Below are positions 198-43,478 of a DNA stretch of 64,000 bases, one piece after another; position 1 is the first letter of the stretch; each line of letters begins with the position of its first letter. The DNA is from a virus (taxonomy: Duplodnaviria > Heunggongvirae > Uroviricota > Caudoviricetes), in IMG/VR virus record IMGVR_UViG_3300021963_000025, positions 1-64,000 of that record. One strand, given 5' to 3'. The notes under the pieces were generated by a model. It saw nothing but the letters and a program-made list of their open reading frames with translations, made no database searches and had not been told where the DNA came from. Position numbers and translations under genes: made by a program.

Positions 198-1322
198 ATG
201 GAAAATCAAAATTCAGTTTGCTACATAGCAAAAATCAACGAAGTAAGGGCAATCGAAGGAGCAGATAACATCGAATTAGTTATCGCAGGTGGATGGAATG
301 CCATTACAAAGAAAGGTGAATATAATGTCGGAAATGCAGTGATAATTGCAACAACTGATGCAGTTATCCCAGAATCACTTTCTGAATCTATGGGAGTAAC
401 TAATTACTTAAGAAAGGGTAATAGAGTACGTACTGTAAAATTACGTGGAGTCTACTCAGAATGTTTAATCATTCCAGGAAACTATCTTAAGGCTAAATTT
501 TTAGTTGAAGGTGCCGACTGTATGGAAGCACTTGGTATTACTAAATACGAGCCACCAGTTAAACAAGTACAATTGGCATCTGGTAGAAAAATCAAATGGA
601 GAGATAACCAAAACTTCCATATCTACTACAAGTTTCCAAACTTGAAAAATGTAGCCGGAATGTTTACCCAAGAGGATGAGGTTCAAATCACCAGAAAAAT
701 CCACGGAACAAATGCCAGATTTGGTATTGTAAAGAAATCTAAATTGACCTTTATGGACAAAGTAAAGAAATTCTTTAGAATTGCTGACGAATGGGTTAAT
801 TATGAGTACATCTACGGTTCTCATAACTGTGAGAAAGGTTCTGACTCTCAAGGATTCTATTCAACTGACGTTTGGAGAACAATCGCAGAAACTTATGGTA
901 TCAAAGAAAGACTTTGGAACCAGGCTAAAAAATACAGTGCTGAAGATTTGGGTTCTGGATTGGTTCTTTATGGAGAAATCTATGGAGCAGGAATTCAAAA
1001 GAACTATGAATATGGTTTAACTGACATCAAGTTTGTTGGATTCGATATTACTGTAAATGGAGAATATTTAGCACCAGAAACTACTCATTTGGTAACTTCT
1101 TGTGATTTAGAACTTCCGCATGTAGAGGTACTTTACAATGGACCATGGTCTCAAGAGGTACAAGACGGCTATGTATTTAATAACTTCATTGAAGGTTCTA
1201 AAGTACCACATGAGGGAATTGTAATCAAACATGTATCTGGTGAGAGAAAGAAAGTAGCGAAGGTTATTAACCCAGACTACTTAATTTACGGTGAAAAGAA
1301 TAACGTAGGAGATTCTCACTAA
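198..1322 (+). CDS. ATP-dependent RNA ligase, Rnl2/Rnl5-like (N-terminal extra domain + nucleotidyltransferase domain)
   Basis: Motif I context TRKIHGTNARFG matches the T4 Rnl2 KIHGTN adenylylation motif; GEIYGAG and EGIVIKH..KKVAKV resemble ligase motifs IV/V; the ~165-aa N-terminal domain is reminiscent of Rnl5 (DraRnl/NgrRnl) architecture. Confidence 0.65.
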   Translation: MENQNSVCYIAKINEVRAIEGADNIELVIAGGWNAITKKGEYNVGNAVIIATTDAVIPESLSESMGVTNYLRKGNRVRTVKLRGVYSECLIIPGNYLKAKFLVEGADCMEALGITKYEPPVKQVQLASGRKIKWRDNQNFHIYYKFPNLKNVAGMFTQEDEVQITRKIHGTNARFGIVKKSKLTFMDKVKKFFRIADEWVNYEYIYGSHNCEKGSDSQGFYSTDVWRTIAETYGIKERLWNQAKKYSAEDLGSGLVLYGEIYGAGIQKNYEYGLTDIKFVGFDITVNGEYLAPETTHLVTSCDLELPHVEVLYNGPWSQEVQDGYVFNNFIEGSKVPHEGIVIKHVSGERKKVAKVINPDYLIYGEKNNVGDSH

Positions 1323-1777
1323 TGGCTGTAGATTATAAAAGAGTCCTCCTAGGAATGCTAGGAGAAAAGATAGTAGCAAAACATTTTAGGGATTCCGGAC
1401 ATCAGGTCGAGGAATCCCTAAATGTCTTTGACTCGGACAAAGATATGGTAATTGATGGATATAATGTTGAGGTAAAAACAAATGCACCCCTAATTTATTA
1501 CGATTCATTCTCGTTTAAAAAGAATCAATACGATAAAATCATGAATTCACATCGAGTTTATTGGGTTTCGGTTCCGTTGCAAACACAAGAGGACAAGTTC
1601 GCTGGATGTGTTTTTGAAATGGACCCTAAGGTTGCAAAGTTACATACAATTACTTTTAACTCCGGACAAACTGCAATAGGTCTCCGTCGACAACAAGAGG
1701 GAATGAAGATAATCCATCGAATTGAAGATACTACAATATTAAAACAACTAAGGGAACTATCATCTTCATATTTATAA
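1322..1777 (+). CDS. hypothetical protein, possible PD-(D/E)xK/YraN-like nuclease fold
   Basis: ORF start overlaps upstream stop (TAATG); D-x(n)-VEVKT pattern resembles UPF0102/YraN-type endonuclease core; weak. Confidence 0.5.
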   Translation: MAVDYKRVLLGMLGEKIVAKHFRDSGHQVEESLNVFDSDKDMVIDGYNVEVKTNAPLIYYDSFSFKKNQYDKIMNSHRVYWVSVPLQTQEDKFAGCVFEMDPKVAKLHTITFNSGQTAIGLRRQQEGMKIIHRIEDTTILKQLRELSSSYL

Positions 1778-1789
1778 GATATATAGTAC

Positions 1790-2491
1790 ATGAAACGTAT
1801 TAAATTATTTGAGGAATTTATTTCTGAAGCAGAAGAAAAAGAAATAAACAAAGGCCCACTGGATAACGCCGATATTAATAAAGCACTTGATAAAAAGGCT
1901 AAAGAATCTGGAGTTCCAATAGGAATCCTTAGAGCAGTAATGCGAAGAGGAATGGGAGCTTGGAATAGTAGCCACCGCGCTGGCGTAAGTCAAGAGGCTT
2001 GGGGATATGCCAGAGTAAATGCATTCCTTGAGAAAGGTGAAGGAACTTGGCAAAATGCTGACGCTGACCTGGCAAAACAGGTTCGAGACGGCGGACATGA
2101 TAAAAAGTTACCATATAAAGTTGAAGAGTCCCTAAACGAGGCTGAAGAGACTTACAATGACTATCCAGCAGCCGCAAAGGAGAATGCAAAGAAGGCATTG
2201 GATTGGAGAGACCAGTATGGTCGTGATGAAGTAACTGCAGGTACTCCAGTTGGATGGCAGCGTGCTAATCAATTGGCAAAAGGTGAAAAACTTTCTCTAG
2301 ATGTTGTTTCCAGAATGGCACAATTTAATCGTCATAGAAAAAACTCAAAGATAGCACCAGAACATAAATCAGAGCCATGGAAGGACAATGGATATGTTGC
2401 ATGGTTAATTTGGGGAGGAGATGAAGGAGTTGATTGGGCTATGAAAAAAATGGATGAAATTAATAAAACCAAAGATAATGAAAAAAATTAA
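1790..2491 (+). CDS. hypothetical protein with N-terminal peptide MKRIKLFEEFISEAEEKE shared with next gene (possible capsid-targeting signal)
   Basis: 233-aa ORF; N-terminal 16 aa nearly identical to N-terminus of CDS 2478-3020; no recognisable catalytic motifs. Confidence 0.65.
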   Translation: MKRIKLFEEFISEAEEKEINKGPLDNADINKALDKKAKESGVPIGILRAVMRRGMGAWNSSHRAGVSQEAWGYARVNAFLEKGEGTWQNADADLAKQVRDGGHDKKLPYKVEESLNEAEETYNDYPAAAKENAKKALDWRDQYGRDEVTAGTPVGWQRANQLAKGEKLSLDVVSRMAQFNRHRKNSKIAPEHKSEPWKDNGYVAWLIWGGDEGVDWAMKKMDEINKTKDNEKN

Positions 2492-3020
2492 ACTATTCGA
2501 AGAGTTCCTAAATGAAAAGGAGAAAGTAACTTATGGTGCAAATTGCGCAATGTTATATTTTGACTTTCCAGCAATGGCAACCCTTCATCAATCGATTAAT
2601 CCTCGTGACATCTACATGGTAGAAAACAACGAGAGTTATGGACTTGAAACTGAACCACACTGTACACTTCTTTATGGAATTGAACCTCAAGTAACAGTGG
2701 ACCAAGTTGCAAAAAAACTTGAAGGAATTAAATTTGGAGAGTGTAAGGCACATAACCTTTCTCTTTTTGAAAATGAAAAATTTGACGTACTAAAATTTGA
2801 TATGGAAGGTGATAATCTTCACAATGCAAATAAGGCACTTACTGAATTACCATATAAAACGGACTATCCGGATTATATGCCCCACATGACTGTTGCATAT
2901 TTAAAACCTGGAAAAGGTTCTGAATATCTAAAGATATTAAACTCGCAAGAACATTCTCTCAAACCGCTGCATATTGTTTACAGTATGACAGACGGCTCTA
3001 AACAAAAAATAGATTTATAA
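2478..3020 (+). CDS. 2H phosphoesterase superfamily protein (LigT/cyclic phosphodiesterase-like)
   Basis: Two H-x-T-x motifs (EPHCTLLYG and MPHMTVAYL) with spacing typical of the 2H/LigT fold; start chosen at MKKIKLFEEF (2478) because of N-terminal homology with CDS 1790. Confidence 0.6.
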   Translation: MKKIKLFEEFLNEKEKVTYGANCAMLYFDFPAMATLHQSINPRDIYMVENNESYGLETEPHCTLLYGIEPQVTVDQVAKKLEGIKFGECKAHNLSLFENEKFDVLKFDMEGDNLHNANKALTELPYKTDYPDYMPHMTVAYLKPGKGSEYLKILNSQEHSLKPLHIVYSMTDGSKQKIDL

Positions 3021-4695: not shown

Positions 4696-4766
4696 GTTTC
4701 GTTGGTCGATTGGTTAGGCACTGGATTGCAAACTCAGTTAGGTTGGTTCGATTCCAACACGAAACT
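4696..4766 (+). tRNA. tRNA-Cys(GCA)-like, irregular D-arm
   Basis: 7-bp acceptor gtttcgt/acgaaac, T-arm gttgg-ttcgatt-ccaac, anticodon loop ttGCAaa; the D-stem does not pair cleanly. Confidence 0.45.
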
Positions 4767-4820
4767 CAAAATAAAACTTTAACAAAATTTTAACATTTAA
4801 AGTTTTACCGATTAAAAGAT

Positions 4821-4850
4821 TTGTATTATATTTACATATCAAATTAGAAC
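4821..4850 (+). promoter_or_regulatory. conserved promoter-like cassette motif, tRNA-operon variant
   Basis: ttgtattatatttacatatcaaattagaacaaagg precedes tRNA-Gly; same motif repeated at 5987. Confidence 0.5.
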
Positions 4851-4882
4851 AAAGGTTCTTTGACATACTGATAACACAATTT

Positions 4883-4954
4883 GCAGCTGTCGTATAATGG
4901 CTATTACTTTAGACTTCCAATCTAAAGATGAGGGTTCGATTCCCTCCAGCTGCT
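4883..4954 (+). tRNA. tRNA-Gly(TCC)
   Basis: Acceptor gcagctg/cagctgc, anticodon stem ctttaga/tctaaag with loop cTTCCaa, T-arm gaggg-ttcgatt-ccctc. Confidence 0.7.
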
Positions 4955-5264
4955 CAATGTATTGATTACCGGCCACAAGCCTCGCACCTTTACCCTAAAT
5001 CGTAGGGATATACTCAAAATGGTGAGACCGGGAAGCTTTCGTAACCGCATCCAAGTGGGCAGTAGGGGATGACGAAAAGAAATAAATTGTATAATGGCGA
5101 AAATATGGAATCGGCCGATAAACATAGAAGTAGCATGTAACGAATATCCGAAAGGAGAATAACGAAGCTCAGCGGTATCAATCAAACACCTCCTCGCGGT
5201 GATACTGGAAATTAGTCATGAACCATCCGGATGGAAAGCAACTAAAACCAAGTTTGAATAATAA

Positions 5265-5335
5265 TGGCTTATAGTGTAACGGTAGCACAAAACACTTTGA
5301 CTGTTTTAGCCCAGGTTCGAATCCTGGTAAGCCAA
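5265..5335 (+). tRNA. tRNA-Gln(TTG)
   Basis: Acceptor tggctta/taagcca, anticodon stem aaaca/tgttt with loop cTTTGac, T-arm ccagg-ttcgaat-cctgg. Confidence 0.65.
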
Positions 5336-5498
5336 CAAATAATTGTAAGTATCGAAAGCCCATCCCAACGCTTGATCAGTAAGTAGGACGGTTAGTATTG
5401 AAAACATTATTAGTAAGTGGTGGAGAAATCCATGCGGAGAAAACGATGCAAGACGCAAGCACAGGGAACCAGCCCGATGGCTTTACTTACGAATATTT

Positions 5499-5569
5499 CT
5501 AGTAGCGAAGCCCGGTTTCATGCCTCACTTGGACTGAGGAGTACGCAGGTTCGAATCCTGCCTATTAGA
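5499..5569 (+). tRNA. tRNA-Pro(TGG)
   Basis: Acceptor ctagtag/ctattag (one G-U), anticodon stem cctca/tgagg with loop cTTGGac, T-arm gcagg-ttcgaat-cctgc; D-arm irregular. Confidence 0.55.
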
Positions 5570-5703
5570 CAAAAAGGATGGTTGCTGCAAAAAATACAAA
5601 TTAGGCTGTTAACCTCGTGGTCGTCGGTTCGAATCCGGCCACTGCTCTTCGGAGTAGTGTAGCTCAGCTGGTAGAGCACGTACAAAAAACCCATCCTGAA
5701 TTT

Positions 5704-5784
5704 GCCCGGGTGGTGGAATTGGTAGACACACTAGACTTAGAATCTAGCGCGAAAGCATTGAGGGTTCGAGTCCCTCCCTGGGTA
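5704..5784 (+). tRNA. tRNA-Leu(TAG), class II
   Basis: gcccggg acceptor, D region tggtggaattggtagacac typical of Leu tRNAs, anticodon stem ctaga/tctag with loop cTTAGaa, long variable arm, T-arm gaggg-ttcgagt-ccctc. Confidence 0.65.
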
Positions 5785-5864
5785 CAAAATTAAAGTTAGC
5801 TTATAGTAAAGCAACCCACGTGGTAGTGGGCGAAGGGATTCAAACACCCACTTTAATTTAATTT

Positions 5865-5936
5865 GCTTCTGAAACATAAATGGTAATGTACTTGATTTGT
5901 ACTCAAGAAAACGGGGTTCGATTCCTCGCAGAAGCT
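5865..5936 (+). tRNA. tRNA-Thr(TGT)
   Basis: Acceptor gcttctg/cagaagc, D-stem acat/atgt, anticodon stem cttga/tcaag with loop tTTGTac, T-arm cgggg-ttcgatt-cctcg. Confidence 0.7.
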
Positions 5937-5986
5937 CTAAACTTTAACATAATTTTAACACTTAAAGTTTTCGGGTTTAAAAAACT

Positions 5987-6016
5987 TTGTTTATATTTAC
6001 ATAACAAATTAGAACA
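5987..6016 (+). promoter_or_regulatory. conserved promoter-like cassette motif, tRNA-operon variant
   Basis: tttgtttatatttacataacaaattagaacaaagg, duplicate of the 4821 copy, precedes tRNA-Glu. Confidence 0.5.
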
Positions 6017-6047
6017 AAGGTTCTTTGACATACTGATAACAAAAACT

Positions 6048-6119
6048 GCTGCGTTAGTGAAGAGGTTAACACGTATCACTTTCTATGATAAGGCACGGGT
6101 TCGAACCCCGTACGCAGTA
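6048..6119 (+). tRNA. tRNA-Glu(TTC)
   Basis: Acceptor gctgcgt/acgcagt, anticodon stem tatca/tgata with loop cTTTCta, T-arm acggg-ttcgaac-cccgt. Confidence 0.65.
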
Positions 6120-6177
6120 CAATTAACCTTTTTACCATTTTGCATGGATATATAGATTATAAAAACATCTAAATACT

Positions 6178-6828: not shown

Positions 6829-6876
6829 AAATATTATACATTGGTTCGCACTAAACAGTAGAGGAAGTGTAATTTT

Positions 6877-6948
6877 GGGGCTATCGTATAACGGCAATTA
6901 CAATGGTTTTGCAAATCATAAATTAGGGTTCGATTCCCTATAGCTCCA
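6877..6948 (+). tRNA. tRNA-Ala(TGC)
   Basis: Acceptor ggggcta/tagctcc with the G3:U70 Ala identity pair, anticodon stem atggt/atcat with loop tTTGCaa, T-arm taggg-ttcgatt-cccta. Confidence 0.7.
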
Positions 6949-6956
6949 CAACAAAA

Positions 6957-7032
6957 GGTCTTGTGAGCCCCATTGGCCGGGGAATTGCACTGTCACTGCT
7001 CTAAAATGAGGGTTCGAAACCCTCCGGGACCG
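6957..7032 (+). tRNA. tRNA-like element with encoded CCA, non-canonical core
   Basis: Acceptor ggtcttg/cgggacc and T-arm gaggg-ttcgaaa-ccctc followed by g-CCA, but no foldable D/anticodon arms found (direct repeat cactg-cactg instead). Confidence 0.3.
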
Positions 7033-7043
7033 CCATGAACAAT

Positions 7044-7338: not shown

Positions 7339-7399
7339 ACTAAGTGATTTGGTTCTAGATGTTCCGGACGTTGGCTTTAATAACGTAAAAATCTAAATT

Positions 7400-12330: not shown

Positions 12331-12537
12331 ATGAAACATTTATTGACATTACTTGTATTACTATTATTAACCTCTTGTACTGTAGAACAGAGAATCTATA
12401 AACACTCTTATACTAAAGAATGGTATTATATGAATGCCGAAAGATATCAGGTATATAAGACCGCTAGAGGTACTCGCTATATTATAGTCCTGAATAACGA
12501 ACAAACTAAATTTAAAAGAAAATATTTAAAGAGATGA
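12331..12537 (+). CDS. small lipoprotein
   Basis: MKHLLTLLVLLLLTSC signal peptide with lipobox cysteine. Confidence 0.55.
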   Translation: MKHLLTLLVLLLLTSCTVEQRIYKHSYTKEWYYMNAERYQVYKTARGTRYIIVLNNEQTKFKRKYLKR

Positions 12538-13238
12538 GAATTACCCTGATTTCCGACACACATACTCGACACGGTCTAATAGACCCTAAATTGGACCTTC
12601 CAGGTGGAGACCTATTACTTCACGCCGGGGATATCATGAACTCTGGTTATAATAAAAATGACATTAAGGATTTTTGCCATTGGTACAATTCTCTTGAGCA
12701 TTACGACCAAAAGATATTTATTGCTGGAAATCATGACAGAACATTTGAAGATTTTCCAGAAGCGGCAAGAGAAATCTATAGTTCTTATAAGAACATTACA
12801 TATTTACAAGACGAAAGACTTGATTTATGGGACGAGGAAGACCAACAAACGGTTATTTATGGTACACCATGGCAACCCTGGTTCTATGACTGGGCTTTTA
12901 ACCTACCAAAAGGCGGACCAGGATTAATGAGCAAATGGGAAGCCATTCCAGCGGACACTGACATTTTAATTACCCACGGACCACCTCAAGAGATTTTGGA
13001 TATTAGTGGACCTCCATATAATGAGCCACTCCTAGGATGCGCCCTATTGAGAGAGCGAGTAGACGAAATCAAACCAAAGATTCATGTTTTCGGGCATATT
13101 CACGGTAGTTATGGTTATAAGTTCCAGAACGGTACGCATTTCTTTAATGCATCTATCCTGAATGAGGAATATAACTATACGAATAGACCAGTTACATTTG
13201 ATTGGAATCCGGAGACTAACGAAATAACTTTTATATAA
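12534..13238 (+). CDS. calcineurin-like metallophosphoesterase
   Basis: ISDTHTRHG, GDIMNSG, GNHD, ITHGPP and FGHIHGS motifs of the metallophosphatase family. Confidence 0.7.
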   Translation: MRITLISDTHTRHGLIDPKLDLPGGDLLLHAGDIMNSGYNKNDIKDFCHWYNSLEHYDQKIFIAGNHDRTFEDFPEAAREIYSSYKNITYLQDERLDLWDEEDQQTVIYGTPWQPWFYDWAFNLPKGGPGLMSKWEAIPADTDILITHGPPQEILDISGPPYNEPLLGCALLRERVDEIKPKIHVFGHIHGSYGYKFQNGTHFFNASILNEEYNYTNRPVTFDWNPETNEITFI

Positions 13239-20025: not shown

Positions 20026-20691
20026 ATGAAAATAGTAGTTAACCCAGGACAAAGAGTCTTTTTTACTTCGGACACCCACTTCAACCATACAAATATTTGT
20101 AGAGGAGTTAGTAAATGGGATGGCGCCAGAGGTACTCGAGATTTCAGGACACTTTACGAGATGAACGCAAACATTCAGGACAATATAAACATGTTGGTCG
20201 GAGAAGACGACATCCTGATTCACTTAGGTGATTGGAGCTTTGGAGGTTTTGATTCTATCGTAGAATTTAGAAAAATGTTGAATTGTAAAAACATTCACCT
20301 TTTCCTAGGAAATCATGACCATCATATCCTTACAAACCGCGGAGATGTTCAAGACCTTTTCGCCTCAGTAAATGAGCAACGTATGGTTACAATTGTAATG
20401 CCTCCACCAGTTAAAGGTGCTGCCTGCCCAAAACACCGATTCGTAATGAGCCACTACCCACTGGCAAGCTGGCAAGATATGGGACAGGGAGTTATGCACG
20501 TTCACGGACATATCCATACACCTCACAGGTTTAAAGTTGGACCTGGCCGAATGATGGATGTTGGAATCGATGGAAACCCAGACTTTGGCCCTTACTCAAT
20601 ACAAGAAGTTTTGAAACTAATTGGCAATAGACCTATAAAATCTTTATTAACCCATGATTTTGACCACCATAACGACGCGGCAACTTCATAA
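20026..20691 (+). CDS. metallophosphoesterase (Ser/Thr phosphatase-like)
   Basis: SDTHFNH, GDWSFGG and GNHDHH motifs. Confidence 0.7.
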   Translation: MKIVVNPGQRVFFTSDTHFNHTNICRGVSKWDGARGTRDFRTLYEMNANIQDNINMLVGEDDILIHLGDWSFGGFDSIVEFRKMLNCKNIHLFLGNHDHHILTNRGDVQDLFASVNEQRMVTIVMPPPVKGAACPKHRFVMSHYPLASWQDMGQGVMHVHGHIHTPHRFKVGPGRMMDVGIDGNPDFGPYSIQEVLKLIGNRPIKSLLTHDFDHHNDAATS

Positions 20692-29833: not shown

Positions 29834-29989
29834 ATGAAAAAAATACTAGGATTATTAGCACCAGCGTGGTTAGGATTTGCATTATCATGCTTCGGTCATG
29901 TTTATTGGTATCAATGGGAATTTTATGCAATTATAGTTCCATTTTACATTTTACAATTAATTGAGAATTCTAATAAAGAGGAAATGTAA
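29834..29989 (+). CDS. small membrane protein (51 aa)
   Basis: Short hydrophobic ORF filling the gap; its stop overlaps the next start. Confidence 0.35.
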   Translation: MKKILGLLAPAWLGFALSCFGHVYWYQWEFYAIIVPFYILQLIENSNKEEM

Positions 29990-30477
29990 TGAAAGTTATT
30001 TTTCTGGACATTGATGGAGTTCTTAATGTAATCCCACAGGGACATGATGCTTACGGTGGAATATTTCATCCTAACTTTGTAGAAAACTTACAAAGAATTA
30101 TTGATGAAACCGGAGCAAAGATAGTTTTAAGTTCATCATGGAGGCACAGTGGTTTAAACAAAATGCTTGCAATGTGGGAGTTTAGAAATCTACCAGGAGA
30201 ATTAATTGGAGTAACACCAGACCTTTATAGATTTTTAGATTTTGAAGGACAAAGAACAATGGTTCGCGGAGATGAAATACAGGCAATTCTTAATAAACAT
30301 CCCGAGATAACAAATTATGTTATTCTTGATGATGACACTGACATGTTACCAAATCAAATGGGAAATTTTGTCTGCTGTTCAAATAATATTAACCATCCAG
30401 ATTGTATTGACATTGGATATGGTTTAACAAATGAATGCACAAATAAAGCAATAAGAATTTTAAATAGAGAAAAATGA
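29989..30477 (+). CDS. HAD-superfamily hydrolase/phosphatase
   Basis: N-terminal FLDIDGVLN (DxDG motif I); paralogue of CDS 39721-40296. Confidence 0.55.
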   Translation: MKVIFLDIDGVLNVIPQGHDAYGGIFHPNFVENLQRIIDETGAKIVLSSSWRHSGLNKMLAMWEFRNLPGELIGVTPDLYRFLDFEGQRTMVRGDEIQAILNKHPEITNYVILDDDTDMLPNQMGNFVCCSNNINHPDCIDIGYGLTNECTNKAIRILNREK

Positions 30478-32437: not shown

Positions 32438-33262
32438 ATGAAAAATGACGCATTAGGCGACAGAATGAAAGAGTTCTATGAGGATAGAACCCGAATCAAA
32501 CTCCCAAGGAGAACCTACACAATTATCCGTATCGACGGAAAGGCATTTCACACCTACACGAAAGGCTTACAACGACCATTTGATGATGGACTTATTGAAG
32601 ACATGAATGCAACTACTGCATATCTTTGTAAGAATATCCAAGGTGCTAAGTTCGGTTATGTTCAATCCGATGAGATTAGTCTTGTTCTAACAGACTTTGA
32701 TGAACTTGGAACTCATGCTTGGTTTGACAATAATCTGCAGAAAATGGTAAGTGTTGCAGCTTCTATGGCAACTTCTGAATTTAATCGTTTAAGATTAATA
32801 AGAGCATGTAACGATAACATGGGAGATTATATTGAAAACTTATTAACCGAGAATGAAATTCAAAAATTCAGAATGGCAGAATTCGATGCCAGAGCTTTTC
32901 AAATTCCATTTATCGATGAGGTTGAAAACTATTTTATTTGGAGACAACAAGATGCTGTACGAAATAGTATCTCTTCAGTTGCACAAAGTCTTTATAGTAC
33001 TAAAGAACTACATGGAGTTAAAACCGATGGTATGCAAGAGTTGATTTTCCAAAAGGGAATCAATTGGAATGACTATGATTTTCGCAAGAAAAGAGGTGCT
33101 GTAATTGCTAAAGTAGAAACAACTTTAATTAAAACAATACAAGGTCCAAACGAAGAAGTAATTGAAACTGAATTTACCAGAAACAAATGGCAAGTTGTAG
33201 AAACACCAACATTCACACAAGACCGAGAATTTATTAAAGGACTATTAAAAACTTTAACATAA
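32438..33262 (+). CDS. Thg1-like protein (tRNA-His guanylyltransferase family; tRNA 5'-end repair/editing)
   Basis: IRIDGKAFHTYTKGLQRPFD and YVQSDEISLVL match Thg1 catalytic blocks (VVRLDGRNFHRF...KPND; YGQSDEYSFVF). Confidence 0.7.
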   Translation: MKNDALGDRMKEFYEDRTRIKLPRRTYTIIRIDGKAFHTYTKGLQRPFDDGLIEDMNATTAYLCKNIQGAKFGYVQSDEISLVLTDFDELGTHAWFDNNLQKMVSVAASMATSEFNRLRLIRACNDNMGDYIENLLTENEIQKFRMAEFDARAFQIPFIDEVENYFIWRQQDAVRNSISSVAQSLYSTKELHGVKTDGMQELIFQKGINWNDYDFRKKRGAVIAKVETTLIKTIQGPNEEVIETEFTRNKWQVVETPTFTQDREFIKGLLKTLT

Positions 33263-36532: not shown

Positions 36533-37273
36533 ATGGCAAAAATATTTAAAGTTGGAGGTTGTATCAGGGATAAATTCCTTGGACTGGACTCTAAAGATAT
36601 AGATTTTACTTTCGTATTGGAAGACACTAAAGGTTTTACGGTTGAGGATGGTTTTCAAATCATGACCAATTGGATGACGGACCAAGGGTTTGAAATCTTC
36701 TTAAGTACTCCGGACTGTTTTACTATTCGTGCTAAGTTTCCAAAAGACCATCAGTTCGCTGGACTGGTTGCAGACTTTGTAATGGCCCGTAAAGAGGTTG
36801 GATATGTTGAAGGAACCCGTAGACCTATCCTAGAACTTGGTACTCTTGAAGACGATTTGGTTCGTAGAGATTTTACCCTAAACGCTCTTGCAGAGGACAT
36901 TGATGGTAATCTTATTGACCTATTCGGTGGAGTAGAAGACTTGAAGGCTGGAATCTTGAGAACTCCATTAGATGCTAAGACTACAATGATGGACGACCCA
37001 TTGAGAATCTTAAGAGCTCTTAGATTTACCATCACTAAAGATTTTCAAATGAGCATGGATATATGGGATGCGATGAAACAACCTAAAATTCTAGAGAAAC
37101 TGGAACAAACTGTAAGTGGAGAGAGAATCAGAGAGGAAATCATAAAAATGATGAAACATGATACTCCAAGAAGTTTTAGATTGCTTTCTGATGTTGACCA
37201 AGATATTCCAGGATTCTTAGATTTAATCTTTAAAAATGGCATGTGGTTGAAACCAACTTTCGAAAAAATATAA
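36533..37273 (+). CDS. tRNA nucleotidyltransferase/poly(A) polymerase head-domain protein (CCA-adding-type, minimal)
   Basis: GGCIRDKFLGL...DIDFTF matches the class II CCA-enzyme GGxVRD...DxD head motif; 246 aa (short). Confidence 0.6.
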   Translation: MAKIFKVGGCIRDKFLGLDSKDIDFTFVLEDTKGFTVEDGFQIMTNWMTDQGFEIFLSTPDCFTIRAKFPKDHQFAGLVADFVMARKEVGYVEGTRRPILELGTLEDDLVRRDFTLNALAEDIDGNLIDLFGGVEDLKAGILRTPLDAKTTMMDDPLRILRALRFTITKDFQMSMDIWDAMKQPKILEKLEQTVSGERIREEIIKMMKHDTPRSFRLLSDVDQDIPGFLDLIFKNGMWLKPTFEKI

Positions 37274-37887: not shown

Positions 37888-38292
37888 ATGACTAGAATAT
37901 ACTTAGATGACGTAAGAACTCCAGTTGACAATGATTGGATTGTTGTTAGAAGCTACGAGGAATTTGTAGAGAAAGTTACCGAAATTGGATTAGAAAACAT
38001 TGATTTGATTTCTTTGGACCATGACTTAGGAGACACTGCGATGCAAGAATGGCACCGTAATGTATATCACAATTATGAATTAAATTATGATAACATTGAA
38101 GAGAAGACTGGAATGGATTGCACTAAATGGTTGGTCAATCAATGGTTGGATGGAGCTCCTGTTGTTGATGTTGTAATACACTCTGCCAACGCAATCGGTA
38201 GTGCCAACATGATGGGTTACATTAATAACTACAGACATGTAAATAGATTGCCACAGAATTGCATCCGTGTTAGAATCGAGCACACTGTATAG
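37888..38292 (+). CDS. hypothetical protein, possible divergent receiver-like (cREC-type) domain
   Basis: IYLDDVR...SLDHDLGD pattern; weak recollection of the cyclic-phosphate-processing receiver domain described in RNA-repair loci. Confidence 0.5.
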   Translation: MTRIYLDDVRTPVDNDWIVVRSYEEFVEKVTEIGLENIDLISLDHDLGDTAMQEWHRNVYHNYELNYDNIEEKTGMDCTKWLVNQWLDGAPVVDVVIHSANAIGSANMMGYINNYRHVNRLPQNCIRVRIEHTV

Positions 38293-38339: not shown

Positions 38340-38903
38340 ATGACATTGTATAAATTTGATTCAGATAGTTTGGCATACTGCCGGATTAATAAACCAATGT
38401 ACTTATTAAAATATATTGGAATTACTTTAGGAATTTGTTTAGCAGTTGGAATTTTTAGTTCAATGCAGTACATTGAAAAAACCAAAGTAGAATTAATTAA
38501 ATCAGAAGCAGTTATTAATTTAATTACCAATGAATCTTTTACAAGAGAAAAATTCTTTGAAGAGGTAGACAAGAGTAATTTTAAATACCCAGACATAATT
38601 AAAGCGCAAGCATTAATTGAAAGTCAGCACTTTTGTTCTCCAGTTTGGAAAGAAAATAACAACGCACTGGGTATGAGATTACCAAATACAAGATTTACTT
38701 TAGCAACGGGTTCAAATTTAGGACATGCTACTTATAAAACTTGGAAAGATTGCGTTAAGGATAGATTAATCTATGAGGCACTTTACTTAAATGATTTGAC
38801 AAAAGTGCAATATTTTAAGTACCTAGACAAAGTTTATGCCAGAGCAGGAGCTACTGCCTATTCAGATTTAATTAAAACAATTATTAAACAAAAGAATCTA
38901 TAA
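38340..38903 (+). CDS. glucosaminidase-domain protein (FlgJ-type muramidase) with N-terminal TM anchor
   Basis: AQALIESQHF...NNNALGMR matches the PF01832-type glucosaminidase AQAxlESgwG...NNxFGik block; N-terminal hydrophobic helix. Confidence 0.45.
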   Translation: MTLYKFDSDSLAYCRINKPMYLLKYIGITLGICLAVGIFSSMQYIEKTKVELIKSEAVINLITNESFTREKFFEEVDKSNFKYPDIIKAQALIESQHFCSPVWKENNNALGMRLPNTRFTLATGSNLGHATYKTWKDCVKDRLIYEALYLNDLTKVQYFKYLDKVYARAGATAYSDLIKTIIKQKNL

Positions 38904-39720: not shown

Positions 39721-40296
39721 ATGAAAACAATTTTTCTGGATAATGACGGAGTAATCTGCCTCTACAATAACTGGGGAGGTCGAGCAAAGAAATGGAGCAA
39801 GTACACTAAACTTAATCCAGGCCAGACCAGTCTAGCGCTTGCACCAGTAGACATACGTTTTGATAACTTTGACGAAAAAGCAGTTAAGGTATTAAACCAA
39901 ATCCTGGAAGAGACTGGAGCCGAAATCGTTGTAAGTTCGGACTGGAGGTTGCATGCAACCCTTGAAGAACTTGGAGAATACTACTTGGCAAAAGGAATCT
40001 TGAAGGCTCCAATCGCATTCACTAAAAGATATATTGGTTGTGATAAACCAGACGAATTTGAATGGTCCAGAAGAACTATGTACGAACAACAGCGATGTAT
40101 TGAAGTTCGACAATATTTAATTGACCATCCAGAAATCACACACTGGGTTTGTATTGATGACCTAGAACTTGGAGAGTCGGACAATTATGGAAATGTACAT
40201 GAATGGGGTTTGAAAAACTTTGTATGGACTCCAAACGAGAAAGAGGGAATTAAACAACAAGGAATTAAAGATAGAGTACTACAATTTTTAAAATAA
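39721..40296 (+). CDS. HAD-superfamily hydrolase (paralogue of 29989-30477)
   Basis: FLDNDGVI motif I; similar length and layout to CDS 29989. Confidence 0.55.
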   Translation: MKTIFLDNDGVICLYNNWGGRAKKWSKYTKLNPGQTSLALAPVDIRFDNFDEKAVKVLNQILEETGAEIVVSSDWRLHATLEELGEYYLAKGILKAPIAFTKRYIGCDKPDEFEWSRRTMYEQQRCIEVRQYLIDHPEITHWVCIDDLELGESDNYGNVHEWGLKNFVWTPNEKEGIKQQGIKDRVLQFLK

Positions 40297-41755: not shown

Positions 41756-41938
41756 ATGAAAACAGTAATTGGAAGTATTTTGGTAGAATTAAGTATCGAC
41801 ACAATCATGATTAAAGATGCTAAAACGTTAGATTTAATAAGAGCTAAAACAGTTAATGCAAATGACGCTGTTGATACCTACAAAGAATTGGTAGTGACAC
41901 TTACTGAAAAACATAAAAAATTAACAGCAAATGGTTAA
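41756..41938 (+). CDS. hypothetical protein
   Basis: ORF. Confidence 0.5.
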   Translation: MKTVIGSILVELSIDTIMIKDAKTLDLIRAKTVNANDAVDTYKELVVTLTEKHKKLTANG

Positions 41939-42152
41939 GACACAAACTAACATATACGATTCGTCGACGATTAAAGCGTCGACGTATGAGTATGAATCAA
42001 AGAATCTTTATGTTGTTTTCGGACATGCAACATATCGATATGCGGAAGTACCTGTAGAGGTCTATCAAGAATTCGCTAATGCAACTTCACAGGGAATTGC
42101 TCTTAACGAATTGATTAAAGGTAAATTTGAATACGAAAAACTGGAGGAATAA
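41931..42152 (+). CDS. hypothetical protein
   Basis: ORF. Confidence 0.5.
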   Translation: MVKTQTNIYDSSTIKASTYEYESKNLYVVFGHATYRYAEVPVEVYQEFANATSQGIALNELIKGKFEYEKLEE

Positions 42153-42153: not shown

Positions 42154-42516
42154 ATGGAAAAGTACATCCAACATAAAGACCTTAAAAAGGTCGAAATCTT
42201 AATGAGCTTCCAAAGACTGGAAGATGGTGAAGAGTTACCAAAGGTAATTGCTCTTGGAGTATCAGACCAAAAGGCATTCACTTCAGATAACAGAAGTAAT
42301 TTTGGAGAGGTAACTTACAAGACGTCTTATAACAATAGAACGGGTAGAAAAGTATCGAACTATTATTTATTTTGGGGTGTTGATGACCGATTCGAAGAGT
42401 CCGGATTTCAAATTTTAACTACCAAATCCGGTAGAAAGGTAAACCTAAAAAGTGCCTTAAAGGTATTCAATGATGCCAGAAAGGCGACTGAATTTGTAAA
42501 CTTTTCTAGAATTTAA
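42154..42516 (+). CDS. hypothetical protein
   Basis: Start set at MEKYIQ immediately after upstream stop. Confidence 0.5.
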   Translation: MEKYIQHKDLKKVEILMSFQRLEDGEELPKVIALGVSDQKAFTSDNRSNFGEVTYKTSYNNRTGRKVSNYYLFWGVDDRFEESGFQILTTKSGRKVNLKSALKVFNDARKATEFVNFSRI

Positions 42517-42540
42517 AATATAACCTAAAATAAGATAATT

Positions 42541-42798
42541 ATGCCATTTTATACAGGAACAAAAGCAGACCTTTCTGATATGCGAGAAGTACAAGGTATG
42601 TACATCTCAGAGGATGGAAATCAATGGTCAAATCGGCCGTATCCAATCCATCGAGAATTATACAGGCATTTAAAGTACGTTAATTTAAGTTTCAAAGAAG
42701 CTCATGAAGCGATGTTAAATGGAACTTCAAAGGCATCTAAAAGAGTACAAAAATATGTATTGGCTAATTACCATGCAATGAACCCACAAAATAGATAA
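42541..42798 (+). CDS. hypothetical protein
   Basis: ORF. Confidence 0.5.
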   Translation: MPFYTGTKADLSDMREVQGMYISEDGNQWSNRPYPIHRELYRHLKYVNLSFKEAHEAMLNGTSKASKRVQKYVLANYHAMNPQNR

Positions 42799-42800
42799 AA

Positions 42801-43478
42801 ATGCGTTATATAAGTATAGATATCGAGACTACAGGATTAGACCCTGAAACTTGTCAAATCCTTTCAATAGGAGCAGTAATTGAAGACACCCTGAATCAAC
42901 TTCCATTCGAAGACCTACCAACATTCCATGGTGTTATTAAACGTGAAAATGTTTCAGGAAGTCTATTTGCCCTGAACATGAACAGGGACCTTATAGAAAC
43001 TATTGTACAATATTCAGGCGCAAGGGACCAAGACGAAAAGAATGATATTGTGAATATGACTGGAATGCAGTTTTATCACGAAGATGAAATTGTAGAAGCG
43101 CTTTTCCAATTTTGTTTTCGAAATAATTTAGTAGAATTAAATCATGACATAAATAAAACAGTTAAAATTGTAGATGGAAAAACATATCCAGTATTAACTT
43201 CAAACATGCCTAAGGTTTATTTAAACTGCGCTGGTAAAAACTTTGCAGGATTTGACAAGAAATTCTTAGAGAAGTTACCGAGATGGAAACAAGTCTTTTC
43301 AATTCGTAGTCGAGTATTGGACCCAGGAATCCTGTTTGTTGATTGGATTAATGACGAGAGTATTCCAAGTCTTGGTGAATGTAAAAAACGTGCAGGAATC
43401 GACGGTATAGTAACTCACAATGCAGTCGAAGATGCAATGGATGTAGTAATGTTACTTAGACAATGTTATCAACTGTAA
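42801..43478 (+). CDS. DEDD-family 3'-5' exonuclease (DnaQ/RNase T-like)
   Basis: Exo I motif YISIDIETTGLDPE; further acidic/His residues (HNAVEDAMDV) consistent with Exo III. Confidence 0.65.
   Translation: MRYISIDIETTGLDPETCQILSIGAVIEDTLNQLPFEDLPTFHGVIKRENVSGSLFALNMNRDLIETIVQYSGARDQDEKNDIVNMTGMQFYHEDEIVEALFQFCFRNNLVELNHDINKTVKIVDGKTYPVLTSNMPKVYLNCAGKNFAGFDKKFLEKLPRWKQVFSIRSRVLDPGILFVDWINDESIPSLGECKKRAGIDGIVTHNAVEDAMDVVMLLRQCYQL

What the first reader, a model, noticed from the sequence alone, without database searches (positions are those of the whole stretch)
198..43478. Dispersed but complete-looking tRNA/RNA repair toolkit accompanying a ~30-gene tRNA cluster
The window encodes an Rnl2/Rnl5-type RNA ligase (198-1322), a 2H/LigT phosphoesterase able to process 2',3'-cyclic phosphate ends (2478-3020), a Thg1-like 3'-5' polymerase that repairs tRNA 5' ends (32438-33262), a CCA-adding-type nucleotidyltransferase that rebuilds tRNA 3' ends (36533-37273), an RNase T-like DEDD exonuclease (42801-43478) and two HAD phosphatases. 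Together with its own tRNA supply this looks like a phage answer to host anticodon nucleases and tRNA-targeting defences (PrrC/RloC/VapC-like toxins, retron/PARIS-type tRNA cleavage), and it goes well beyond the T4 Pnk/Rnl1 paradigm. The Thg1-like + CCA-enzyme + 2H combination in a phage is unusual.
Basis: partly seen in the sequence, partly recalled or inferred. Interest (0 to 1): 0.75.

Follow-up and report, generated by a model that had tools for sequence, protein, structure and literature searches.

The report
Phage tRNA and RNA-end repair gene set
An uncultivated phage carries about 27 tRNA genes plus enzymes that can heal, seal and rebuild broken RNA ends; the genes are real and recur together in related phages, but this kind of toolkit has already been catalogued in large phages.

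Summary
In related phages the same families recur in compact, differently ordered clusters, and TLP genes sit inside tRNA arrays. This supports a shared tRNA/RNA-end function.

Caveats:
- 21 of 24 tRNA genes lack CCA, so the CCA enzyme may simply mature phage tRNAs.
- The 2H protein is closest to Acb1-type immune-signal phosphodiesterases. It also carries a leader resembling the T4 capsid-targeting sequence.
- The exonuclease is generic, not RNase T.
- One HAD lies in an NAD+-reconstitution island.

The concept and this gene list were published for jumbo phages (Iyer et al. 2021). TLP homologues occur in 164 GenBank phage records. Verdict: a new member of a known kind, of moderate interest.

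The parts
1..195 (+). 3' end of a 127-codon gene that separates the PNK-like AAA_33 kinase from the ligase. The kinase lies outside the window, at source-contig positions 2383-2766, ending 189 nt upstream of window base 1.
   Evidence: The window is identical to ENA ERZ27296343 contig k141_928885 from position 2956 (0 mismatches in 7322 nt). Called genes on the contig run kinase(AAA_33)-o127-Rnl5-o151-DUF5824-2H. The kinase family hits PF13671 at 8.6e-14 in the relative L083.
198..1322 (+). Rnl5-type ATP-dependent RNA ligase: an N-terminal OB domain plus a nucleotidyltransferase domain. Motif I is KIHGTN; motifs III, IIIa, IV and V are also present.
   Evidence: phrog_968 3.5e-56; NgrRnl 3e-13; TIGR02306 8e-30, full length, below the equivalog cutoff. 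Motifs were read from the translation.
1322..1777 (+). Conserved 151-aa ORF whose start overlaps the ligase stop codon. Function unknown. A possible PD-(D/E)xK-like motif (D..EVK) was seen by eye only.
   Evidence: No Pfam hit. Found next to the ligase in 15 related loci.
1790..2491 (+). DUF5824 protein with an N-terminal leader, MKRIKLFEEFISE.
   Evidence: PF19141 2.4e-10. Leader analysis.
2478..3020 (+). 2H phosphoesterase (two HxT motifs) with an N-terminal leader, MKKIKLFEEFLNE. Its closest relatives are Acb1-type phage phosphodiesterases.
4696..10140 (+). tRNA gene array of 25 genes (24 by ARAGORN plus tRNA-Met at 7271-7338), interrupted by two GIY-YIG endonuclease-like ORFs. Only Asp (6957-7035), Met (8276-8353) and His (9106-9181) encode CCA. 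tRNA-His has G at position -1 and A73.
   Evidence: GIY-YIG hits.
12534..13238 (+). Calcineurin-like metallophosphoesterase 1, a candidate 3'-phosphate / cyclic-phosphate end healer.
   Evidence: PF00149 2.9e-15. Homologues lie within a few kb of cREC in 31 of 80 cREC loci.
20026..20691 (+). Calcineurin-like metallophosphoesterase 2.
   Evidence: PF00149 1.1e-4, 23.1 bits against a cutoff of 21.5. Homologues lie near cREC and Rnl in 32 of 80 cREC loci.
29989..30477 (+). HAD_SAK_2 phosphatase no. 1 (motif DIDG). It lies between a Macro-like gene and NADAR, inside an NARP1-like island.
   Evidence: PF18143 1.2e-25; phrog_1818. Adjacent to TLP in L023-L027.
32438..33262 (+). Thg1-like protein (TLP), a 3'-5' nucleotidyltransferase of the bacterial BtTLP type. 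It lacks the eukaryotic HINNLYN motif.
   Evidence: (phrog_4717 2.4e-85).
36533..37273 (+). Short (246 aa) class II CCA-type tRNA nucleotidyltransferase. It has the head and neck with motifs A-E (GGxxRD, DxD, RRD, DDxxR, ERxxxE). The body/tail and HD domains are absent.
   Evidence: (phrog_24229 7e-58, profile length 245). Motifs were read from the translation.
37888..38292 (+). cREC, a cyclic-phosphate-processing receiver-like domain.
   Evidence: PF20274 3e-20. Neighbourhoods. The prediction comes from PMC7824862.
39721..40296 (+). HAD_SAK_2 phosphatase no. 2 (motif DNDG).
   Evidence: PF18143 5.3e-18. Adjacent to cREC in 10 loci and to the 2H gene in L117, L141, L148 and L158.
41931..42152 (+). 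KTSC domain protein, listed among phage translation/RNA-rescue accessories.
   Evidence: PF13619 2.4e-12; PMC7824862.
42801..43478 (+). DEDDh 3'-5' exonuclease of unknown substrate.
   Evidence: PF00929 4.7e-8, with Rv2179c-like below its cutoff. No significant solved relative. Only 7 phage records match, all annotated generically. It lies between Rnl and HAD next to cREC in L234.
47769..48111 (+). Two further long-arm tRNA or tRNA-like genes (47769-47862 and 48025-48111), located outside the array.
   Evidence: Rfam RF00005 at 31.4 and 55.2 bits. Sequences shown.

Best explanation
The window, together with the kinase gene 189 nt upstream of it, encodes a phage RNA-end healing, sealing and end-restoration set that accompanies a near-complete phage tRNA supply.

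Proposed operation (steps 2-5 are inferred from family biochemistry; none is shown for these proteins):
1. About 27 phage tRNAs are transcribed. Most lack CCA.
2. 3' trailers are trimmed, perhaps by the DEDDh exonuclease or by host RNases. The short class II nucleotidyltransferase then adds CCA.
3. For RNAs or tRNAs broken by ribonucleases, the AAA_33 PNK-like kinase phosphorylates 5'-OH ends.
4. The 2H enzyme and/or cREC open 2',3'-cyclic phosphates. The metallophosphoesterases and HAD_SAK phosphatases remove the remaining phosphate. The Rnl5-type ligase then seals 3'-OH/5'-P nicks held in a duplex.
5. The TLP refills missing 5' nucleotides of acceptor stems in a templated 3'-5' reaction. The CCA enzyme rebuilds damaged 3' ends.

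The set therefore serves both routine maturation and quality control of the phage's own tRNAs, and repair after host attack on the translation apparatus.
For: Family identities.

Probable operon: kinase-o127-Rnl5-o151-DUF5824-2H lie on the source contig with abutting or overlapping starts and stops. This block is conserved in 20 related loci with 64-98% 2H identity. The small AAA_33 kinase gene was found in 15 of them (L083-L097).

Recurrent clusters in different gene orders in other phage lineages:
- CCA-x-Rnl5-x-x-2H, with an AAA_33 kinase 2 kb further on, in L112.
- HAD_SAK-x-2H in L141.
- MPE-Rnl-x-x-cREC-MPE, cREC-MPE-Rnl, MPE-CCA-Rnl-cREC (L201) and MPE-Rnl-DEDD-HAD-cREC (L234).

Of about 115 window proteins used as queries, the four most frequent neighbours of cREC are the two metallophosphoesterases (32 and 31 of 80 loci), an unknown 211-aa ORF (30) and the ligase (27). 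In the window these genes lie 6-37 kb from cREC.

TLP genes lie inside tRNA arrays, with tRNAs within tens to hundreds of nt, in L031, L041, L044, L048 and L074. They lie within 2.2 kb of an Rnl in L022, L032, L033 and L063.

The closest characterised TLP, BtTLP, prefers to repair 5'-truncated tRNAs of any identity (PMC3061083).

The same functional grouping was predicted independently for jumbo phages (PMC7824862).
Against: - There is no biochemical or infection data for any of these proteins.
- In the window the genes are spread over 43 kb. Apart from the kinase-to-2H row they share no operon.
- Many supporting loci are close relatives, so counts are inflated by shared ancestry. With a crude null, 2H proximity to toolkit genes in diverged loci (9 of 60 within 3.5 kb) does not clearly exceed chance.
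- The 2H enzyme's closest characterised relatives degrade immune nucleotide signals.
- HAD no. 1 and the TLP are embedded in an NAD+-reconstitution island.
- No Tpt1/KptA, RtcB or Pth was found in the window.
- The CCA enzyme lacks the tRNA-measuring body/tail domain.
- The host and its tRNA-targeting defences are unknown.
Confidence: 0.6

Rival explanations
1. This is housekeeping only. The CCA enzyme, the TLP and the exonuclease exist to mature and quality-control the phage's own unusual tRNAs, which are CCA-less and include a tRNA-His with G-1 opposite A73. They have nothing to do with host nucleases, and the remaining genes are unrelated.
For: - 21 of 24 tRNA genes in the window lack CCA. 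So do 506 of 578 tRNA genes in related loci. CCA addition is therefore obligatory.
- TLP genes are embedded in tRNA arrays in several lineages.
- The window and its closest relatives (L086-L092, L125) have tRNA-His with an encoded G-1 but A73. More distant relatives have C73. With A73, RNase P would be expected to remove G-1 (established knowledge of bacterial tRNA-His processing), so G-1 would have to be re-added.
Against: - The TLP is of the BtTLP type and lacks the HINNLYN anticodon-recognition motif. BtTLP prefers truncated tRNAs of any identity.
- tRNA-His is not enriched next to TLP genes: 9 of about 160 neighbouring tRNAs. Phages with C73 tRNA-His also carry a TLP.
- This reading does not explain the kinase-ligase row or the recurrent ligase-cREC-phosphoesterase clusters.
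Confidence: 0.25
2. The 2H protein is not an RNA-end healing enzyme. It is an Acb1-like phosphodiesterase that destroys host cyclic or linear oligonucleotide immune messengers (CBASS, type III CRISPR, Panoptes-type signals). It may be delivered inside the capsid.
For: - PF23474 Acb1 is the only Pfam model above its cutoff: 31.4 bits against 27. The LigT models fall below theirs.
- The only solved proteins detectable by sequence or profile are Acb1 (7T26) and the Burkholderia phage phosphodiesterase 9Q2G. These also head the Foldseek list.
- Phage 2H phosphodiesterases have diverse messenger specificities (bioRxiv 10.1101/2025.08.21.671373).
- The protein carries a leader like the T4 capsid-targeting sequence, and that leader is shared by at least 19 unrelated protein clusters.
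Against: - The matches to Acb1 are weak (E 0.008-0.04 by sequence or profile; TM 0.45-0.6). LigT, YjcG, Usb1 and plant CPDase follow closely in Foldseek.
- T4 Acb1 is not detected by tblastn.
- The gene lies in one co-directional row with the kinase and ligase. It lies next to ligase, CCA enzyme or HAD_SAK in other lineages.
- Some phage 2H groups show no activity on any messenger tested.
Confidence: 0.35
3. There is no functional unit. The genes are independent accessory genes of a large phage, acting mainly on DNA or free nucleotides: the ligase on RNA-primed nicks in replication intermediates, the exonuclease on DNA, and the HADs and metallophosphoesterases on nucleotides or ADP-ribose derivatives. 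Their co-occurrence would reflect only the accessory-gene islands typical of big phages.
For: - The genes are spread over 43 kb.
- Unrelated genes such as thymidylate synthase and an amidase also appear near cREC in 12-14 of 80 loci through shared synteny.
- Rnl5 enzymes seal nicks whose template strand may be DNA (established biochemistry of NgrRnl and DraRnl).
- The exonuclease is generic.
Against: - The ligase, cREC and metallophosphoesterases recur next to each other in at least 8 different gene orders, at two to three times that background frequency.
- The kinase-ligase row is conserved.
- TLP genes lie inside tRNA arrays.
- TLP and CCA enzymes have no known DNA substrates.
Confidence: 0.1

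Closest known systems
RNA-repair complement of jumbo phages (Iyer, Anantharaman, Krishnan, Burroughs & Aravind 2021, Viruses 13:63; PMC7824862, section 3.4.9)
   Same: Essentially the same inventory and the same proposed logic. Phage tRNAs are combined with ATP-dependent RNA ligases, a polynucleotide kinase, 2H and cRec cyclic phosphodiesterases, Swiss-army-knife HAD and calcineurin-like phosphatases, a CCA-adding enzyme, Thg1 and a KTSC protein, alongside NAD+-centred counter-defence genes.
   Different: - The ligase here is Rnl5-type (DRB0094/NgrRnl family), not the Rnl1/Rnl2 types emphasised in that paper.
- No RlaP, RtcB, Pth2 or KptA was found in the window.
- The phage belongs to an uncultivated lineage (source contig 92.7 kb, incomplete) with no megablast match to any deposited phage.
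- That paper calls Thg1 'only sporadically present'.
Phage T4 Pnk (PseT) + Rnl1 repair of PrrC-cleaved tRNA-Lys
   Same: The heal-and-seal logic is the same: a 5' kinase, removal of the 3' phosphate and an ATP-dependent ligase. T4 also has its own tRNA cluster carrying GIY-YIG (Seg-like) endonuclease genes.
   Different: - T4 fuses the kinase and the phosphatase in one protein and uses Rnl1.
- Here the kinase is a stand-alone 127-aa AAA_33 protein and the ligase is Rnl5-type.
- End healing is spread over 2H, cREC, metallophosphoesterase and HAD_SAK genes.
- TLP and a CCA enzyme are additional.
- No experimental link to any anticodon nuclease exists.
Fungal/plant tRNA ligase Trl1 (ligase + P-loop kinase + 2H CPDase) and bacterial Pnkp/Hen1 (kinase + calcineurin-type phosphoesterase + ligase)
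   Same: The same three chemistries occur as neighbouring genes: kinase, Rnl and 2H in one co-directional row, and metallophosphoesterases clustered with the ligase in relatives.
   Different: - The proteins here are separate rather than fused.
- No Tpt1/KptA was found to remove a junction 2'-phosphate, and no Hen1 methyltransferase was found.
- The ligase belongs to a different clade.
Bacillus thuringiensis Thg1-like protein (BtTLP, PDB 4KGK)
   Same: It is the best solved relative, at 1.6e-58 over both domains. The catalytic DG...SDE residues are conserved and HINNLYN is absent. BtTLP repairs 5'-truncated tRNAs in a templated reaction.
   Different: The phage protein has an insertion of about 27 residues (residues 119-145). 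It lies in a phage NAD+/RNA accessory island. Its activity is untested.
Acb1 (T4 gp57B, Erwinia phage FBB1; PDB 7T26/7T27) and Burkholderia phage BCSR5 phosphodiesterase (9Q2G/9Q2Y)
   Same: A compact phage 2H fold with two HxT motifs. These are the only solved proteins detected by sequence or profile, and they rank first in Foldseek.
   Different: - Identity is only 13-18% and TM-scores are about 0.5.
- T4 Acb1 is not found by tblastn.
- The genomic context is kinase/ligase/HAD_SAK rather than a stand-alone gene.
- The N-terminal segment is a leader shared with unrelated proteins, not an enzyme-specific lid.
Naegleria gruberi and Deinococcus radiodurans Rnl5 ligases (NgrRnl 5COT, DraRnl DRB0094)
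   Same: The architecture is an N-terminal OB domain plus a C-terminal nucleotidyltransferase domain. TIGR02306 aligns over its full length and all ligase motifs are present.
   Different: The score is below the NCBIfam equivalog cutoff (103.9 against 151). The biological role of Rnl5 enzymes is itself unknown.

Membership tests
Rnl5 (DRB0094/NgrRnl) RNA ligase | N-terminal OB-like domain fused to a C-terminal nucleotidyltransferase domain, with no C-terminal appended domain | tested here: met
   PHA02142 OB at residues 10-93 and RNA_ligase at 160-357 of 374 aa. TIGR02306 aligns 10-362 to positions 5-339 of 341. NgrRnl is the top solved hit.
Rnl5 (DRB0094/NgrRnl) RNA ligase | Covalent nucleotidyltransferase motifs I (KxxGxN lysine), III, IIIa, IV and V | tested here: met
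   KIHGTN, LYGEIYG, FVGFDI, EGIVIK and KKVAKVINPDY were read in the translation. They were assigned by eye against the Rnl2/Rnl5 consensus, not by structural alignment.
Rnl5 (DRB0094/NgrRnl) RNA ligase | Seals 3'-OH (RNA) / 5'-PO4 nicks in duplexes | not testable with these tools
   Requires a biochemical assay.
2H phosphoesterase superfamily | Two H-x-T/S motifs on a duplicated beta-alpha-beta lobe fold | tested here: met
   H61, T63, H136 and T138 are invariant in 40 sequences. The AF2 model has pLDDT 88. 25 Foldseek hits at E<=1e-3 are all 2H enzymes.
Acb1 (anti-CBASS 2H nuclease) | Match to the family model and to solved Acb1 proteins | tested here: inconclusive
   PF23474 scores 31.4 bits against a cutoff of 27. 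It is listed as 'weak' in the precomputed hits. Solved Acb1 proteins match only at E 0.008-0.04. T4 Acb1 is not detected by tblastn.
Acb1 (anti-CBASS 2H nuclease) | Cleaves 3'3'-cGAMP, cUA or cAAA 3' of adenosine; has a substrate lid | not testable with these tools
   Requires an enzyme assay. The N-terminal 14 residues are disordered in the model.
LigT/ThpR RNA 2',3'-cyclic phosphodiesterase | Match to LigT family models | tested here: not met
   PF13563 scores 23.7 against a cutoff of 27, and PF02834 scores 18 against 23.3. TIGR02258 scores 19.7 against 65.7. E. coli LigT ranks only sixth in Foldseek, at E 9e-5.
Eukaryotic-type Thg1 (tRNA-His G-1 guanylyltransferase) | HINNLYN motif that recognises the tRNA-His anticodon | tested here: not met
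   The aligned segment reads AVRNSISS where Candida Thg1 has HINNLYN.
Thg1-like protein (TLP, bacterial type) | Thg1 palm domain with catalytic carboxylates; closest to characterised TLPs | tested here: met
   PF04446 1.3e-28. BtTLP 1.6e-58 with RIDG and SDE conserved. phrog_4717 2.4e-85.
Thg1-like protein (TLP, bacterial type) | Templated 3'-5' addition to 5'-truncated tRNA | not testable with these tools
   Inferred from BtTLP (PMC3061083).
Class II CCA-adding enzyme | Head domain with motifs A-E, including the (E/D)DxxR nucleotide template | tested here: met
   PF01743 8e-18 and PF12627 1.6e-4. GGCIRD, DID, RRDFT, DDPLR and ERIREE were read in the translation. CCA enzymes are the top solved and NCBIfam hits.
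Class II CCA-adding enzyme | Body and tail domains that bind the tRNA elbow (full length about 360-470 aa) | tested here: not met
   The protein is 246 aa. Alignments to CCA enzymes stop at about residue 220 of the query and about position 225-300 of the targets. It belongs to a short phage family (phrog_24229, profile of 245 positions).
RNase T | Specific similarity to RNase T beyond the DEDDh motifs | tested here: not met
   Only the broad PF00929 model is hit. NCBIfam gives only fragments of generic 3'-5' exonuclease models at 27 bits or less. No solved relative has E below 0.06. The DEDDh motifs (DIETTG, FD, HNAVED) are present.
HAD_SAK_2 (Swiss-army-knife RNA-repair HAD phosphatase) | Family model match and the DxDG nucleophile motif | tested here: met
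   1.2e-25 and 5.3e-18. The motifs FLDIDGV and FLDNDGV are present.
cREC (cyclic-phosphate processing receiver domain) | Family model match; genomic linkage to RNA ligases | tested here: met
   PF20274 3e-20. An Rnl homologue lies within 8 kb in 27 of 80 cREC loci, in several gene orders. The catalytic activity itself has only ever been predicted.
T4-type heal-and-seal system (5' kinase + 3' phosphatase + RNA ligase) | A polynucleotide 5'-kinase encoded with the ligase | tested here: met
   There is no P-loop kinase inside the window. A 127-aa AAA_33 kinase lies two genes upstream of the ligase on the source contig. It is found in the closest relatives (L083-L097) and in several more distant loci.
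T4-type heal-and-seal system (5' kinase + 3' phosphatase + RNA ligase) | Demonstrated reversal of an anticodon-nuclease lesion | not testable with these tools
   The host and its defences are unknown.

The most novel reading that the evidence does not exclude
The 2H phosphoesterase and the adjacent DUF5824 protein may be capsid-packaged 'internal proteins'.

- Both begin with a 13-residue leader, MK[KR]IKLFEEF[LI]xE. It resembles the T4 capsid-targeting sequence MKTYQEFIAE, including the L/I-x-E protease-site pattern.
- The same leader heads at least 19 unrelated protein clusters in related phages. These include a P-loop kinase and a GNAT-like protein.
- Many of these genes are inserted at variable positions between the ligase and the 2H gene. 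That resembles the hyperplastic internal-protein loci of T4-type phages.

If true, this phage lineage injects a ready-made phosphodiesterase with its DNA. That enzyme would either heal RNA ends or destroy immune signals before any phage gene is expressed.

A second, weaker novel reading is that the TLP restores G-1 on a phage tRNA-His that has switched to a eukaryote-like A73 discriminator.
Probability: 0.3. Interest if true: 0.6.

Novelty: new member of a known kind. Interest (0 to 1): 0.35.

Why it matters
If the set works as proposed, this uncultivated phage lineage carries one of the fuller known combinations of tRNA supply plus RNA 5'-end, 3'-end and break repair. It would also give a natural setting for two enzyme families whose biological roles are still open: bacterial-type Thg1-like proteins and Rnl5 ligases. 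The compact clusters found in relatives (for example kinase/ligase/2H/CCA in L112 and ligase/exonuclease/HAD/cREC in L234) are good candidates for biochemical reconstitution. However, the concept is already in the literature as a comparative-genomic prediction. Every tested component except the exonuclease belongs to an existing phage protein family, and nothing here shows which host defence, if any, is countered.

Tried and rejected
1. Megablast of 27 kb of the window against 50,697 deposited phages found no match. No close cultured relative exists.
2. A Walker-A search of all window ORFs for the missing 5' kinase found only two chance hits. Fetching the source contig resolved this: the kinase lies just outside the window.
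3. The exonuclease was tested as RNase T or as a T4 DexA-like enzyme, and neither was supported. There is no significant solved relative and NCBIfam gives only generic fragments. Only 7 phage records match, none T4-like.
4. Foldseek was used to decide between Acb1 and LigT for the 2H protein. Acb1-type enzymes rank first, but the E-values and TM-scores are too close to discriminate.
5. I tested whether TLP genes are specifically linked to tRNA-His. They are adjacent only in L031 and L041, and tRNA-His accounts for 9 of about 160 neighbouring tRNAs. A His-specific link is rejected; a link to tRNA arrays in general is kept.
6. I looked for T4 late promoters (TATAAATA) to support a T4-like late/capsid programme for the leader-bearing genes. 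There were 8 matches against 10.5 expected, so no enrichment.
7. Burroughs & Aravind 2016 (NAR), the source of the HAD_SAK definition, could not be read. I relied on the Pfam description and on PMC7824862.
8. The ORFs next to the ligase and the TLP (1322-1777 and 31789-32364) gave no family hit even at E<=1.
9. A crude chance estimate for 2H proximity to toolkit genes in diverged loci was not clearly exceeded. I therefore do not claim statistical significance for that pair.

Full report
**Observation**

The window is a phage-like stretch with 34.7% G+C and nearly all genes on the + strand. It has no megablast match among 50,697 deposited phages.

- 198-1322 is an ATP-dependent RNA ligase with an N-terminal OB domain. 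PF09414 scores 1.4e-18 and PF21189 5.5e-13. TIGR02306, the DRB0094/Rnl5 family, scores 8e-30 over its full length. NgrRnl is the best solved relative.
- 2478-3020 is a 2H phosphoesterase. Both HxT motifs are invariant in 40 homologues. The AF2 model has pLDDT 88, and all significant Foldseek hits are 2H enzymes.
- 32438-33262 is a Thg1-like protein. Pfam scores 1.3e-28 and BtTLP 1.6e-58.
- 36533-37273 is a class II CCA-type nucleotidyltransferase.
- 42801-43478 is a DEDDh exonuclease.
- The two HADs, 29989-30477 and 39721-40296, both belong to PF18143, 'HAD domain in Swiss Army Knife RNA repair proteins'.
- ARAGORN finds 24 tRNAs at 4696-10140 and Rfam adds three. The total is about 27, rather than about 30.

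A scan of all ORFs against Pfam found several additional relevant genes:
- a cREC 'cyclic-phosphate processing receiver' domain at 37888-38292 (3e-20), two genes after the CCA enzyme;
- two calcineurin-like metallophosphoesterases, at 12534-13238 and 20026-20691;
- a KTSC protein at 41931-42152.

No P-loop kinase is present in the window. The window is, however, identical to ENA contig k141_928885 (92,681 bp) from position 2956. On that contig a 127-aa AAA_33 (polynucleotide-kinase-type) gene ends 189 nt before window base 1. The local order is kinase-o127-Rnl5-o151-DUF5824-2H, with abutting or overlapping starts and stops. The heal-and-seal core is therefore a tightly packed, co-directional row (probably one operon) immediately upstream of the tRNA array, and the window boundary cuts it.

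**Do the dispersed genes belong together?**

I fetched IMG/VR loci around relatives of the TLP (111 contigs, 80 kept), the 2H protein (263, 80 kept) and cREC (147, 80 kept). I then searched them with all window proteins.

- The Rnl5-...-2H block is conserved in 20 related loci with 64-98% 2H identity. The small AAA_33 kinase gene was found in 15 of them (L083-L097).
- Other lineages place the same families in compact but different orders:
  - CCA-x-Rnl5-x-x-2H, with an AAA_33 kinase 2 kb further on, in L112;
  - HAD_SAK-x-2H in L141;
  - MPE-Rnl-x-x-cREC-MPE, cREC-MPE-Rnl, MPE-CCA-Rnl-cREC (L201) and MPE-Rnl-DEDD-HAD-cREC (L234).
- The commonest neighbours of cREC are the two metallophosphoesterases (32 and 31 of 80 loci), an unknown 211-aa ORF (30) and the ligase (27). 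Unrelated syntenic genes appear in 12-14 loci. In the window, those four neighbours lie 6-37 kb from cREC.
- TLP genes lie inside tRNA arrays in L031, L041, L044, L048 and L074. They lie within 2.2 kb of an Rnl in four loci and within 1 kb of a HAD_SAK in L023-L027.

Many loci are close relatives, so these counts are not independent events. For 2H alone, proximity in diverged loci does not clearly exceed a crude chance estimate. Taken together, the rearranged clusters support a shared RNA-end function.

**Mechanism (inferred)**

1. The phage supplies tRNAs for 19 amino acids by ARAGORN. Ser has only candidate genes.
2. 21 of 24 tRNA genes lack CCA. In most of them the discriminator base is followed by C and then A-rich sequence. 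In related loci 506 of 578 tRNA genes also lack CCA. CCA addition is therefore obligatory for these tRNAs.
3. The phage nucleotidyltransferase has motifs A-E but is only 246 aa. It lacks the body/tail and any HD domain, and belongs to a short phage family.
4. For broken RNA, the proposed order is: the kinase phosphorylates 5'-OH; 2H and/or cREC open 2',3'-cyclic phosphates; the metallophosphoesterases and HAD_SAK remove the phosphate; and the Rnl5-type ligase seals duplex-held nicks.
5. The TLP is of the BtTLP type and lacks HINNLYN. BtTLP prefers templated refilling of 5'-truncated tRNAs of any identity (PMC3061083).

None of these activities has been shown for these proteins.

**Rivals and caveats**

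1. A maturation-only role would explain the CCA enzyme and possibly the TLP. The window and its closest relatives have tRNA-His with an encoded G-1 opposite A73. More distant relatives have C73. However, phages with C73 also carry a TLP, and tRNA-His is not enriched next to TLP genes.
2. The 2H protein's only sequence-detectable solved relatives are Acb1 and a Burkholderia phage phosphodiesterase, and the Acb1 Pfam model is the only one above its cutoff. Phage 2H enzymes have diverse immune-messenger specificities, and some show none. Its substrate is therefore unresolved.
3. The exonuclease is generic.
4. HAD no. 1 and the TLP lie within an NAD+ island. The island consists of:
   - a PRPP-synthetase-like gene at 27715-28584;
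   - a Poa1p/TARG1-like Macro gene at 29270-29830;
   - NADAR at 30474-30950;
   - a NAMPT-family gene at 34251-35720.

   This looks like the published NARP1 pathway with an associated phosphatase. HAD no. 1 may therefore act on ADP-ribose phosphates instead.

**Comparison with what is known**

The inventory and its interpretation match section 3.4.9 of Iyer et al. 2021 almost item for item (PMC7824862). Anantharaman et al. 2010 had already linked Thg1 with polynucleotide kinase, Macro and RNA ligase genes, and noted Thg1 in a phage (PMC2904730).

TLP homologues occur in 164 deposited phage records: Bacillus 46, Prevotella 15, Caulobacter 13 and others. Each tested gene except the exonuclease has a matching PHROG family.

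What is specific here is threefold: an Rnl5-type ligase packed in one co-directional row with a minimal kinase, the breadth of end-healing enzymes, and an uncultivated lineage. The nearest cultured relatives for single genes are Maribacter phages, Sphingomonas phage PAU and huge metagenomic phages.

**Side observation bearing on the 2H gene**

The 2H and DUF5824 proteins start with MK[KR]IKLFEEF[LI]xE, and a small ORF at 63376 starts with MKTFNEFIIDE. These resemble the T4 capsid-targeting sequence MKTYQEFIAE (PMC8442874).

- In the fetched loci this leader heads at least 19 unrelated protein clusters. Several of these genes are inserted between the ligase and the 2H gene at variable spacing.
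- The leader is disordered in the 2H model.
- It is absent from the Maribacter phage homologue.
- T4 late promoters are not enriched in the window.

This suggests, but does not show, that the 2H enzyme is packaged in the capsid and injected.

**Verdict**

This is a new member of a known, computationally predicted kind of phage RNA-repair / tRNA-maintenance gene set. Interest is moderate (0.35). The most novel reading not excluded is capsid delivery of the 2H enzyme (probability about 0.3).

Noticed in passing
window 1790-1830, 2478-2518, 63376-63410; loci L083-L162: A conserved N-terminal leader, MK[HKR]IKLFE[ED]F[LI]NE, resembles the T4 capsid-targeting sequence MKTYQEFIAE. It heads the 2H protein, the DUF5824 protein and at least 17 further unrelated protein clusters in related phages. 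Several of these genes sit in a variable-content locus between the ligase and the 2H gene.
   Followed up: partly
source contig k141_928885 positions 2383-2766 (189-572 nt upstream of window base 1): A 127-aa AAA_33 polynucleotide-kinase-like gene lies two genes upstream of the RNA ligase. The window boundary cuts this tightly packed gene row (probable operon).
   Followed up: yes
window 27715-35720: An NAD+ island consisting of a PRPP-synthetase-like gene (27715-28584), a Poa1p/TARG1-like Macro domain (29270-29830, weak Pfam hit), HAD_SAK_2, NADAR (30474-30950) and a NAMPT-family gene (34251-35720, NF006629 3e-166). It resembles the published NARP1 pathway with an associated ADPR-1''-phosphatase, and the TLP gene is inserted in it. 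TLP stays close to these genes in relatives with 50-87% TLP identity.
   Followed up: partly
window 9105-9181; L086, L088-L092, L125: tRNA-His has an encoded G at position -1 but an A73 discriminator, in the window and in its closest relatives. More distant related phages have the usual bacterial G-1/C73. The window copy also has two mismatches in the acceptor stem (5:68 and 6:67).
   Followed up: partly
window 4696-10140: In most of the 21 CCA-less tRNA genes the discriminator is followed by C and then A-rich sequence (N73-C-A-A-A). Six tRNAs have a G1-U72 wobble pair at the top of the acceptor stem.
   Followed up: no
window 6178-6828, 9218-9874, 10370-10882: Two GIY-YIG (one with NUMOD3) homing-endonuclease-like ORFs lie inside the tRNA array, and an HNH endonuclease lies just after it. 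This recalls the Seg genes in the T4 tRNA region.
   Followed up: no
window 13975-16308, 16343-18679, 19185-19601: Two paralogous proteins of about 777 aa, and a 138-aa protein, share an N-terminal M-x-x-F/L-K-T/S-T motif. None has a Pfam hit. They may be structural or fibre proteins.
   Followed up: no
window 44078-44713 and 38340-38903: An unknown 211-aa ORF is among the most frequent neighbours of cREC (30 of 80 loci). A 187-aa ORF with a weak glucosaminidase hit also recurs between the ligase and cREC in relatives. Both may be uncharacterised members of the same gene set.
   Followed up: no
window 45018-45494, 48683-50002, 61404-62651, 35925-36455: T4-like accessory genes are present: a pyrimidine-dimer glycosylase (DenV-like), an ATP-dependent DNA ligase, a thymidylate synthase carrying a large insertion, and a nucleoside 2-deoxyribosyltransferase-like protein.
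   Followed up: no
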